A DNA stretch of 21,302 bases from Tolypothrix carrinoi HA7290-LM1. GTDB taxonomy: Bacteria > Cyanobacteriota > Cyanobacteriia > Cyanobacteriales > Nostocaceae. The first letter of the stretch is position 1; each line of letters opens with the position of its first letter. The stretch is taken from positions 1 through 21,302 of the forward strand of contig JAHHIK010000133.1 in NCBI GenBank assembly GCA_019358935.1. The letters run 5' to 3'. The notes beneath the pieces were generated by a model. The model saw nothing but the letters and a program-made list of their open reading frames with translations, was not told the DNA's origin and did no database searches. The position numbers were made by a program, and so were the translations under genes. Below are positions 3,237 through 7,092 of the stretch, piece after piece.

Positions 3237-3554
3237 AAACTTATTCCCAGCTATACATAGGGCAGAATACGAACAATTACTTGAAAAAGAGCCAGAAAGT
3301 AACTTCTCTGGCTCTTATTTTGTCTCAAAACAATTAAAATCAGACTAAATTCGGGAAAAATTTCGAGTTGACCAAGCCCCGTTGGGGCGGGGTGTAGGGT
3401 ATGGGGTGTGGGGTGTGGGGGAAGAGATAGCCCCAACAACCAGTGGGTCACAAGCCCCATTCTTTAGGACGATTGCGTTGGTCGGGGTTTCAAGCCCTGA
3501 CCAACGCCGTCAACGAGACCTGCAACCCTAACCATGCAACCCCACACCCTTCTT

Positions 3555-3735
3555 GTTGACCGAGGTTATGCAACCGTTACATAAGACTTACTCAAAGCTA
3601 TTCAACCATTTGCTTTTCGTTTGGTAGATAACTGGCAAAACGGTTAGCTTTGAAGCTTACTTCCTCTTTCATCCTGGTAGTGTCGGCACTCACCAGTCCA
3701 GAGGCGCGAGCACGGTCTAACTGACCGCTATATGT
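3555..3735 (-). ncRNA. Putative TnpB omega-RNA (reRNA) scaffold plus psaK-derived guide
   Basis: The minus strand GCGGTCAGTTAGACCGTG...GGACTGGTGAGTGCCGACACTACCAGGATGAAAGAGGAAGTAAGC...CTTTGAGTAAGTCTTATGTAACGG reads as a relic IS607-type TnpB C-tail (AVS*TVLA/GLVSADTTRMKEEVS), the region that encodes the omega-RNA. Stems CGGTC/GACCG and CTGGT/ACCAG; -10-like TATAAC at 3747-3742. Confidence 0.6.
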
Positions 3736-4020
3736 GTCGAAGTTATAAAAAAAACTTCTTTTGAGGCGCTACTAACGACCCTCTACGCGAGTTGCTTCAC
3801 TTGGGGAAACCCCAAGACCGCACTCGCTTGTCTATGGAGCCTGCACAACGCCAGTGGCACGTTTATCAAACGCCAGTCTTAGCTGTCAGGGGTTTATCCT
3901 CTGACGGCACGGTTGTTAACCGTTACTATATTGACTATTCTAGCATCTTTTCGCTATATCTACTCAAAATTGACCACTTGTGATTAGGCTTGAATAGCTT
4001 TTAGGTTACAGCTTCTAGCC
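3574..4020 (-). mobile_element. Non-autonomous IS607-like mini-element (~445 bp, no ORF) inserted in psaK
   Basis: GG dinucleotide at both junctions; 12-bp subterminal inverted repeat AAAGCTATTCAA (3594-3605) / TTGAATAGCTTT (3990-4001), 17-18 nt inside each end; psaK coding sequence resumes on both sides. Left boundary uncertain by 1 nt. Confidence 0.7.
3785..3828 (+). repeat. ~45-bp small dispersed hairpin element (copy inside the mini-element)
   Basis: GCGAGTTGC...TTGGGGAAACCCCAA...GCACTCGC; homologous to copies at 7753, 14511, 15529 and 18489. Confidence 0.8.
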
Positions 4021-4531
4021 CTACACCTAATAAATGACCAAAGGAAGTAGTTGCTAACAGCGCAGGTAAACCAAAACCACCAAAAAAATTGGATGAAGGC
4101 AAAGCTGGTTCTGATTGGGGATATTTGATACTGGATTTACCGAAAGCGATCGCTGCGGACATTGGGTGAGAATCATAATTATCCCCTACTGTCGGACTTT
4201 ATTGCAACGGTGTTGTAGGAACAGCAAGCAAGGTGGATGTAATCAACTGATTTTCGACAAAATTTTTATTGATTAAAAATATAATCTGAACTTTGGGTAA
4301 ACAAATTCAACAGTCAACTGGGAATTTGCATCAATAATTTACAGATTTTGTCATAACTTCATATAATCACCGTTTTGCTCTTTCTCACTCGCTTGTTATC
4401 GTATTAGCTTTCCACACCCCACAGGAGAATTGTACGAAAGATAAATCAAAAAAGGTACTCTCAAGGGTACTGTCAGAAAATCTACGGATTACCCAAAATG
4501 AGGAGACAGAAAACTCATTTTAATAAGTCTT

Positions 4532-5453: not shown

Positions 5454-5858
5454 TCAAGCTTTTTGTTGTTCTATATACCGCTTCACTGTTTCTGTACAAA
5501 CATTGCCTGCCGTACTTACGAAATAACTAGGTGTCCAGAGAGTTGGGAGCTTCATTAACTCTGGGAATTCTTTTCTCAATACATGAGACGCTCGACCTTT
5601 AATTAGCCGAATAATTTTGCTTGGGTCATCGCTAGGCTTTGCGTTTACAAACATATGTACATGGTCTGGCATAATTTCAAGTGCAATAATTTTCCATCGG
5701 TTTTCAACACAAACCTCAAAAATAATCTCTTGCAGTTTTTCTGCAATAGCCCCTACTAGCACTTTTTTACGGCGCTTCGGAATAAACACAAAATGATAGT
5801 TCAGGAGTGAAACCGCGTTACCCTCATGCCGATACTCATCGGGAGAAAACTTAGCCAT
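5454..5858 (-). CDS. tnpA: IS200/IS605 Y1 (HUH) transposase TnpA, 134 aa
   Basis: LNYHFVFIPKRRK, HUH motif PDHVH, LWTPSYFVSTAG, catalytic Tyr in VKRYIEQQ. Start MAKFSPDEY at 5858. Confidence 0.95.
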   Translation of the reverse strand: MAKFSPDEYRHEGNAVSLLNYHFVFIPKRRKKVLVGAIAEKLQEIIFEVCVENRWKIIALEIMPDHVHMFVNAKPSDDPSKIIRLIKGRASHVLRKEFPELMKLPTLWTPSYFVSTAGNVCTETVKRYIEQQKA

Positions 5859-5948
5859 AACTTTACAATAATACTTGGCAATTTGTATATAGCTATTGTA
5901 TATTAGTAATAGATCGAATACAACAAGTTTAGGGGAAAGGTTAAAGCG

Positions 5949-7092
5949 ATGCTGGTTCTGGAATACAAAGTTAAAGGCAAAAAAGCTCAATATGCAGCTA
6001 TTGATGATGCTATTCGTACCACCCAATTCATCCGCAATAAAGCGGTTCGATATTGGATGGATGCTGATAAAGAGTTGAAAGTTGATAAGTTTGCACTTAA
6101 CAAGTATTCCACCCAACTACGCAAAGAATTTCCCTTTGTCGCTGACTTAAATTCGATGGCAGTGCAATCAGCCGCAGAGCGTGGATGGTTTGCAATCTCA
6201 CGGTTTTACGATAACTGCAAATCTAAAAAATCTGGCAAGAAAGGCTATCCTCGCTTTCAGAAAGATTGTCGTTCGGCTGAGTACAAGACATCGGGATGGC
6301 GGTTACATCCAACTAAAAAACGTATAACTTTTACTGACAAAAAAAGTATTGGTACCTTGCGGCTTTTAGGAAAGTGGGATATTCAATCCTGCGATGTCAA
6401 AGACATCAAGCGGATACGTTTAATTCGTCGCGAGTCGCGGGTATTACGCTCAATTCTGCATCGGCATTGTGTTGAGCGATATTCAACCTAAAACAGGGGC
6501 AGAAATAGGTTTAGATGTTGGTATAGAGTCGTTCTATTCTGACAGCAATGGACATCATGAACCTAATCCTAAGTTTTTGAGAAAAGCAGAAACATCGATT
6601 AAGCAATCTCAAAGACGCATTTACAAAAAGGTAAAAGGTTCACTGGGTAGACGCAAGGCAAGAAAAGTCTACGCCAAAAAACACTTAAGAGTAAGTAGGC
6701 AACGTATAGAACATGCGAGGAGAGTCGCACGTTGCGTAATCAAATCTAACGATTTAGTAGCCTACGAAGATTTAAGAGTTTCTAATATGGTTAAAAATCA
6801 TTGTTTAGCAAAATCAATCAGTGATGCTAGTTGGTATTTGTTCAGGCAGTGGTTAGAATATTTTGCCGTTAAGTTTGACAAAATAGCTGTTGCTGTTCCA
6901 CCTCAATACACTTCTCAGAAGTGTAGTAGCTGTGGTGTAGTTGTCAAAAAATCTCTATCAACTCGCACCCATAATTGTACTTGTGGATGTAGTTTGCATA
7001 GAGATGTTAACGCTGCGGTAAATATTCTAAATCTTGCAAAAGCTAGGGTCGGGCAGACCCAAAGTAACGCTCTTTGGAGTCGGAATCTCTAG
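5949..7092 (+). pseudogene. tnpB: RNA-guided endonuclease TnpB, split by a +1 frameshift at ~6432-6438
   Basis: The N-half (GYPRFQK, SAEYKTSGW) joins the C-half via IRR../GYYAQFCI. RuvC motifs GLDVG, AYEDL and HRDVNAA and the zinc ribbon CSSC...CTCGC are all in the second frame. Confidence 0.92.

What the first reader, a model, noticed from the sequence alone, without database searches (positions are those of the whole stretch)
3555..4021. Protein-free, omega-RNA-only IS607-like element inserted in psaK; its predicted guide is the psaK 3' end
Seen in sequence: psaK coding sequence stops at ...GHLLGVG (GGG 4021-4019) and resumes about 445 nt later, right after a GG, as TTG CAT AAC CTC GGT CAA (LHNLGQ, 3573-3556). 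The insert has GG at both junctions and a 12-bp inverted repeat (AAAGCTATTCAA) 17-18 nt inside each end. It has no transposase or nuclease ORF. Its last ~160 nt read as a relic IS607-type TnpB tail (AVS*TVLA/GLVSADTTRMKEEVS) and are preceded by a -10-like TATAAC (3747-3742). Established: IS607 elements recombine at a GG core, and TnpB omega-RNAs are encoded by the tnpB 3' end/right end and take their guide from the adjacent flank. Inference: this is a MITE that lost its proteins but kept, and may independently transcribe, the guide RNA. Loaded into a TnpB supplied in trans, the guide TTGCATAACCTCGGTC would direct it to uninterrupted psaK, with a TAM near TAGGG/AGGG. That could drive homing among polyploid chromosome copies, or repress a photosystem I gene if the partner is nuclease-dead. 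A simple join of the flanks lacks about 4 codons (xILG) of typical PsaK, suggesting a small deletion at the site.
Basis: partly seen in the sequence, partly recalled or inferred. Interest (0 to 1): 0.85.

Follow-up and report, generated by a model that had tools for sequence, protein, structure and literature searches.

The report
Gene-less IS607 with extra RNA leader
A small gene-less jumping element sits in an already broken photosystem gene; it does not regulate that gene, but its family pairs a TnpB guide RNA with its own promoter and an uncatalogued, strongly conserved folded RNA leader that is found joined to the guide RNAs of several different transposon lineages.

Summary
The insert (4018-3574, minus strand) is real: a protein-free IS607 derivative with a GG core after a TAGGG motif, single-copy here but with 60 distinct related loci in other cyanobacteria (44 with both ends; 51 of 52 guides differ). 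It keeps a TnpB omega-RNA scaffold (3728-3574) with the nexus pseudoknot. The psaK story fails: this psaK also has a premature stop, three single-base insertions and a second inserted element, no intact target exists in the genome, and the proposed TATAAC is not conserved (6 of 22). This module is not found in tnpA/tnpB loci, has no Rfam match, is the best-conserved part (91%), covaries, and is joined to the scaffolds of four TnpB subclades in four cyanobacterial families. Most likely a selfish cassette that borrows resident TnpB to cut its own empty site, with a leader that matures or protects the RNA (inferred). This copy looks decayed. The scan noted similar architectures on other DNA before.

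The parts
4019..4246 (-). 5' part of psaK pseudogene (TTG start at 4246; TAA at codon 16, 4201-4199; three single-base insertions; 3-nt deletion)
4019..4023 (-). TAGGG: transposon-adjacent motif ending in the GG core
   Evidence: CboIStron TGGG in 10.1101/2023.11.20.567912 section 7
3574..4018 (-). protein-free IS607 mini-element, 445 nt including one GG core
3990..4018 (-). IS607 left end, with the left arm of the 12-bp repeat at 4001-3990 (probable transposase-binding repeat, inferred)
3937..3945 (-). extended -10 promoter element (TGnTAnnnT); predicted start about 3930
   Evidence: 20 of 22 full copies, 10-15 nt before the first hairpin
3762..3930 (-). conserved structured 5' RNA module (about 130 nt without the inserted repeat), not found in tnpA/tnpB loci, no Rfam match
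3784..3828 (-). 45-nt dispersed repeat inserted into the module (21 hits of 30 nt or more in the genome); same site also hit in L103 and L165
3574..3728 (-). TnpB omega-RNA scaffold and right end: nexus hairpin 3728-3712, loop GTTA pairing with TAAC 3579-3576, right arm of the repeat 3605-3594
3555..3573 (-). predicted guide (psaK codons LHNLGQ); matches only the element's own empty site, which is not in the assembly
3369..3560 (-). second, unrelated gene-less element (8 hits of 150 nt or more in the genome) inserted in the last psaK codons, GTCA at both ends

Best explanation
The insert is one, probably ageing, copy of a family of non-autonomous IS607 cassettes built as left end - internal promoter - conserved 5' RNA leader - omega-RNA scaffold - right end. 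A serine transposase from an autonomous IS607 moves it in trans at RGGG sites (GG core). The promoter makes one RNA of about 300 nt plus flank; TnpB made by a resident IS607 binds the scaffold and takes the right flank as guide, so it cuts the element's own empty site and biases repair towards keeping or restoring the element among chromosome copies. The leader stands where tnpA-tnpB stand in the parent and most likely decides the fate of the RNA's 5' end (matures it or shields it from decay) so that an RNA without its own tnpB message can compete for TnpB. Shown: anatomy, ends, mobility, scaffold, conservation and covariation, pairing with resident TnpB lineages. Inferred: transcription from this promoter, loading in trans, cutting, and the leader's role (about 0.45 on its own). 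psaK is a bystander: the element survives there because the gene is dead.
For: Ends shared with autonomous tnpA+tnpB elements L176 and L180. 26 of 26 left ends called on GG alone read RGGG; an empty site reads AAGGG joined directly to the right flank. 60 distinct loci, 44 with both ends, 50 with a recognisable scaffold, 51 of 52 guides distinct. Nexus hairpin predicted in 22 of 22 full copies and loop/3'-end complementarity in 22 of 22; the pseudoknot letters change together in other end types (GATT/AATC, GCTC/GAGC). Extended -10 in 20 of 22. Module 91% mean identity against 83% for the scaffold and 62-76% for promoter and ends; 6 of 21 pairs change on both sides, 0 of 500 shuffles reach this. 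In three distant genomes the scaffold and right end match a tnpB element of the same genome at 87-94% while the module matches none of 42 tnpB loci; the partner TnpBs are 39-61% identical between subclades. Cognate TnpB in 18 of 24 module-bearing genomes against 82 of 365 others. Contigs of homologues in 4 of 4 RNA libraries laid, from 4 studies (weak).
Against: No RNA data for this strain; contigs cannot show strand or start and some run into the promoter or flank, so may be DNA. This genome has no cognate tnpA (best 43%), and its cognate tnpB is split by a group II intron at contig ends, the joining of the two halves being unproven. 6 of 24 module-bearing genomes gave no cognate TnpB hit (only 5 candidates scored per genome). 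The window's module is damaged (87.8 bits against 107-149 for most family copies). Most covarying cells come from few distant sequences, the structure was drawn by me from the same sequences, and kin are not independent. Nothing tested bears directly on what the leader does.
Confidence: 0.62

Rival explanations
1. The leader is a regulatory switch: it pairs with the scaffold's second stem and holds the omega-RNA off until a ligand, a protein or TnpB's own RNA processing releases it.
For: An 8-nt stretch of the leader is fully complementary (G-U allowed) to the scaffold in 15 of 22 copies and is predicted paired with probability 0.8 or more in 15 of 22. PMC10278001 (passages read) reports inhibition of a TnpB by a 5' region of its own mRNA.
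Against: No covariation: where the scaffold changes, the leader does not follow; the pairing is mostly lost in distant end types (read) and in the window copy (6 of 8, probability 0.00). An 8-mer of this kind can arise by chance between sequences of these lengths (my estimate).
Confidence: 0.15
2. The module is an independent small RNA (selfish, or useful to the host) carried as cargo between IS607 ends; the omega-RNA only comes along as part of the right end.
For: The same left end carries other cargo in this genome (an unrelated TnpB at C105, a small divergent ORF at C85). The module does not follow TnpB clade. Truncated copies persist upstream of one gene in five related genomes.
Against: No intact module was found apart from an IS607 right end (the exceptions are cut by contig ends or are truncated). 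Scaffold stems and the pseudoknot stay intact. No conserved neighbour gene.
Confidence: 0.13
3. A neutral deletion relic; conservation only reflects recent spread of one element, and no RNA is used.
For: One copy in this genome, damaged, without a transposase. Low copy numbers per genome (1-5).
Against: The interior is more conserved than the ends that transposition needs; compensatory changes; the same module on four end and scaffold types in four families; no source for it in parent elements.
Confidence: 0.07
4. One reading: the guide is used to repress or home into intact psaK as a photosystem I control.
For: The guide does match the psaK 3' end behind a TAGGG in the orthologous empty allele, as any IS607 flank does.
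Against: psaK here carries a stop, three insertions and a second element; 0 target sites in the assembly; the two other psaK genes are divergent paralogues; no relative among 17 aligned has the insertion; 51 of 52 guides differ; catalytic motifs of the cognate TnpB are intact.
Confidence: 0.03

Closest known systems
IS607-family elements with serine TnpA and TnpB (CboIStron; 10.1101/2023.11.20.567912, sections 5 and 7 read)
   Same: GG core, G-rich TAM (TGGG there, RGGG here), scaffold ending in ..CGG, nexus stem-loop pairing with the scaffold 3' end, guide from the right flank, cutting of the empty donor joint.
   Different: No tnpA, no tnpB, no group I intron; own promoter and an extra RNA leader.
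Protein-free omega-RNA elements: PATEs of IS200/IS605 (PMC10055086, passages) and standalone omega-RNAs (PMC10691335, passages)
   Same: No protein gene, both ends kept, guide RNA that needs a nuclease in trans.
   Different: IS607 ends rather than IS200/IS605 hairpin ends; not a plain deletion product, since a foreign conserved module replaces the genes and recurs with four TnpB subclades. The passages I saw mention no such leader.
RAGATH-18 reRNA of IS607 TnpB (PMC11061315, passages)
   Same: IS607 TnpB guide RNA with pseudoknots; GAGGG is one of the TAMs reported.
   Different: No Rfam match for this element; reRNAs there lie behind their tnpB.
MITEs
   Same: Short, gene-less, moved in trans.
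   Different: No family-wide terminal inverted repeat (3 of 22) and no target duplication beyond the GG core.
TldR repressors (10.64898/2026.09.22.753285, passages; PMC10705468, search listing only)
   Same: TnpB-type guide RNA could in principle direct repression.
   Different: No nuclease-dead cognate protein seen, no fixed guide, no intact target.

Membership tests
IS607 family (non-autonomous derivative) | GG core at both junctions, no target duplication | tested here: met
IS607 family (non-autonomous derivative) | ends shared with an autonomous serine-TnpA + TnpB element | tested here: met
   L176, L180
IS607 family (non-autonomous derivative) | copies at different sites, empty sites in relatives | tested here: met
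IS607 family (autonomous) | encodes TnpA and TnpB | tested here: not met
IS607 family (non-autonomous derivative) | excision or integration by TnpA in trans | not testable with these tools
   no cognate tnpA in this assembly
TnpB omega-RNA | nexus stem-loop with pseudoknot to the scaffold 3' end | tested here: met
   22 of 22; letters change together across end types
TnpB omega-RNA | homology to the 3' region of tnpB elements | tested here: met
TnpB omega-RNA | expressed as RNA | tested here: inconclusive
   homologues in RNA-library contigs, no strand or start, not this strain
TnpB omega-RNA | binds TnpB and guides cutting | not testable with these tools
   bench test needed
MITE | terminal inverted repeats and target-site duplication | tested here: not met
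IStron | group I intron core, insertion inside genes restored by splicing | tested here: not met
   no Rfam hit; an ORF of 120 codons or more spans the joined flanks in 1 of 42 elements tested
TldR system | nuclease-dead TnpB with a fixed guide against a host gene | tested here: not met
Known riboswitch, ribozyme or small RNA (5' module) | match to an Rfam model | tested here: not met
   five searches, only chance-level hits
Self-cleaving ribozyme of a new class (5' module) | site-specific self-cleavage | not testable with these tools
   in vitro transcription needed

The most novel reading that the evidence does not exclude
The 5' module is a new class of functional RNA, a self-processing ribozyme or a ligand- or protein-operated switch, that forms with its promoter a portable guide-RNA expression cassette. 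It has been re-joined to the omega-RNAs of at least four IS607 TnpB subclades, letting gene-less elements capture whichever TnpB the genome makes: an RNA-only parasite of OMEGA transposons.
Probability: 0.3. Interest if true: 0.85.

Novelty: new variant of a known kind. Interest (0 to 1): 0.6.

Why it matters
Protein-free omega-RNA elements are known, but their role is described as unknown (PMC10691335, passage) and TnpB normally makes its guide from its own mRNA (PMC10278001, abstract). How a guide with no tnpB message gets made and loaded is open. This family offers a concrete, testable answer: a dedicated promoter plus a conserved leader. A leader that works with several TnpB clades could also be a part for expressing guide RNAs, or a new ribozyme or riboswitch class. 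The psaK link itself does not matter.

Tried and rejected
Rfam: five searches over the window, five whole loci and three short stretches gave only chance hits. Sigma-70 scan found nothing inside the element (it needs both hexamers at 16-18 nt). Other copies in this genome: none by BLAST or model. Antisense pairing of the module with the cognate tnpB message: no better than resampled controls in 4 of 4 pairs (3-13 of 20 controls as good). IStron-like splicing: rejected. Coding role: no conserved ORF; indels of 1, 2, 26 and 45 nt. Module in viruses, phages, plasmids: none (one plasmid hit covers the scaffold only). Outside the order: model searches of 151 phylum and 151 class genomes gave only weak hits; the four I opened (L134, L138, L222, L223) lie in protein genes and are chance; the other weak rows were not opened. 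One search used a mis-indexed structure and the nexus column was mis-indexed; both were redone. The GGG counts are by construction and are not used as TAM evidence. For the co-occurrence count I dropped 10 of 34 genomes with weak hits (E 1e-8 or worse). Depth differences among RNA contigs are not used to rank expression. Resemblances of the module to riboswitch, ribozyme and tracrRNA classes that I recalled did not hold in order or in the divergent copies and are not claimed. Literature: nine searches; none of the listings or passages I saw describes such a leader; most subscription papers and all bioRxiv supplements were out of reach, and I opened no supplements (the MITE table of PMC3542288 could hold such an element).

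Full report
Observation. On the minus strand psaK runs from a TTG at 4246 to ...GHLLGVG at 4019, then 445 nt of insert (4018-3574) end in GG and psaK resumes at 3573. Seventeen aligned orthologous loci are uninterrupted; against them the window lacks the 12 nt between two TAGGG motifs, which removes VILG. How this arose is not shown; loss between the two 5-nt repeats, or recombination between insertions at the two neighbouring sites, would both give it. The same alignment shows that psaK is broken independently of the insert: TAA at codon 16 and three single-base insertions (I could not check these against reads, but the assembly is 99.65% complete by markers). A second gene-less element of about 190 bp, with 8 long hits in the genome, starts at 3560 in the last codons. 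Two divergent psaK paralogues lie on another contig.

What the element is. It is single-copy in this genome but belongs to a family. BLAST found it in 34 of 389 genomes of the family, 24 of them strongly; pattern scans found 31 genome and 16 metagenome stretches, with record titles in Brasilonema, Scytonema, Calothrix, Rivularia, Nostoc, Westiellopsis, Desmonostoc, Richelia and Anabaena. After removing duplicates there are 60 distinct loci, 44 with both ends, 50 with a recognisable scaffold, and 51 of 52 right flanks differ. Both ends are those of autonomous IS607 elements with a serine transposase and TnpB (L176, L180). All 26 left ends called on GG alone read RGGG, and an empty site shows AAGGG joined straight to the right flank. 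This fits the TGGG motif and GG core of the CboIStron (10.1101/2023.11.20.567912, sections 5 and 7).

The guide RNA. From 3728 the element matches the 3' region of tnpB elements. The apparent stop in AVS* is the native stop in 9 of 11 intact cognate tnpB loci, so what follows is the omega-RNA, not a decayed gene. The nexus hairpin is predicted in 22 of 22 full copies and its loop is complementary to the last bases before the GG in 22 of 22; in other end types both sides change together. This is the pseudoknot described for omega-RNAs in the paper above. The guide would be the psaK 3' end, but the assembly has no NGGG site followed by the 16-nt guide at up to 3 mismatches. The only possible target is the element's own empty site.

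TATAAC is present in 6 of 22 copies; an extended -10 at 3945-3937 is present in 20 of 22, 10-15 nt before the first hairpin, while the bases around it vary. Behind it lies a module of about 130 nt (3930-3762, with a 45-nt dispersed repeat inserted here; the name SDR for such repeats is recalled). It is the best-conserved part: 91% mean pairwise identity, against 83% for the 5' scaffold, 76% for the left end, 65% for the promoter region and 62% for the right-end repeats; only the last 17 nt equal it. A covariance model found it in three further families of the order (G442 and G487, G415, G477, the last at E 0.009 but with the full element around it). On 37 aligned copies, 6 of 21 proposed pairs change on both sides and none of 500 shuffles reaches that; slid partners give 0-4. 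I drew the structure from these sequences and few distant copies carry most of the signal, so this is supportive, not proof. Five Rfam searches found nothing. In G387, G442 and G415 the scaffold and right end behind the module match a tnpB element of the same genome at 94, 89 and 87%, while the module matches none of 42 tnpB loci; the partner TnpBs of the four subclades are 39-61% identical. So one module is joined to at least four scaffold and end types. Among family genomes, a cognate TnpB was found in 18 of 24 with the module and 82 of 365 without (kin are not independent).

Expression. No run holds this strain. Contigs of homologues, mostly 80-95% alike, cover module and scaffold in 4 of 4 RNA libraries laid, from four studies, and three contigs bridge the two parts. 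Contigs show neither strand nor start, and some reach into promoter or flank. This is a weak hint only.

State of this copy. The module scores 87.8 bits against 107-149 for most family copies. The genome has no close tnpA (best 43%). Its cognate tnpB keeps the three catalytic motifs but is split by a multi-copy group II intron at two contig ends, so TnpB would need splicing; another copy is a 3' fragment. This copy is probably stranded. Family members avoid genes: an ORF of 120 codons spans the site in 1 of 42 tested, which fits an insertion tolerated only in a dead psaK.

Mechanism. Most likely the cassette is moved by TnpA in trans, is transcribed from its own promoter, loads a resident TnpB and has it cut the empty site, as shown for IS607 and IS605 elements (10.1101/2023.11.20.567912; PMC10055086, passages). 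TnpB normally trims its guide from its own mRNA (PMC10278001, abstract and passages); the leader occupies the place of that mRNA. Its unpaired bases are conserved and do not follow the TnpB clade, and it is not antisense to tnpB, which points to a self-contained fold or a host partner acting on the RNA's 5' end. That step is inference. A switch that sequesters the scaffold is possible but lacks covariation; an independent cargo RNA is possible but no intact module stands apart from a right end.

Comparison and novelty. Protein-free elements with omega-RNAs are known (PMC10055086, PMC10691335; passages). An added, conserved leader that recurs across TnpB lineages was not in the listings or passages from nine searches. 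Two earlier notes of this scan describe a similar layout in other genomes; sequence look-ups found no link, so I cannot say whether it is the same RNA. Verdict: new variant of a known kind, interest 0.6; the psaK regulation idea is rejected.

Noticed in passing
G000:C56:16067-16440 and L024:2588-2973: The same GGG site just upstream of a gene that looks like protochlorophyllide reductase holds the module element in G001 and a different gene-less IS607 element (other ends, other interior, also with an extended -10) in this genome; it is empty in the relatives read. A hotspot, and a second candidate leader type.
   Followed up: partly
G000:C85:37138 and C146, C123, C151: A multi-copy group II intron sits in tnpB genes, with identical 3' ends in front of three different tnpB C-terminal pieces: an intron that may target a conserved tnpB site.
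   Followed up: partly
window 3369-3560: Second gene-less element of about 190 bp with GTCA at both ends and strong hairpins; identical or near-identical copies on C16, C52, C2. Looks like an IS200/IS605-type PATE (recalled, not tested).
   Followed up: partly
G000:C105:26044 (minus): The same IS607 left end carries a TnpB of another clade; several tnpB-only elements have a short divergent ORF of about 50-70 aa in place of tnpA, perhaps the Arc-like protein of 10.1101/2023.11.20.567912.
   Followed up: no
window 3784-3828; L103; L165: The same 45-nt dispersed repeat has entered the same site of the module in elements with different left ends, which suggests a sequence-specific target.
   Followed up: no
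L063-L067: A truncated module with its promoter stands upstream of a WecB/TagA-like glycosyltransferase gene in five related genomes; possibly a promoter taken over by the host.
   Followed up: no
G000:C89:22350: A further very short gene-less IS607 element (left end, scaffold, right end of another type) without the module.
   Followed up: no
window 5454-7092: An IS200/IS605 element with divergent tnpA and a frameshifted tnpB, unrelated to the insert.
   Followed up: no
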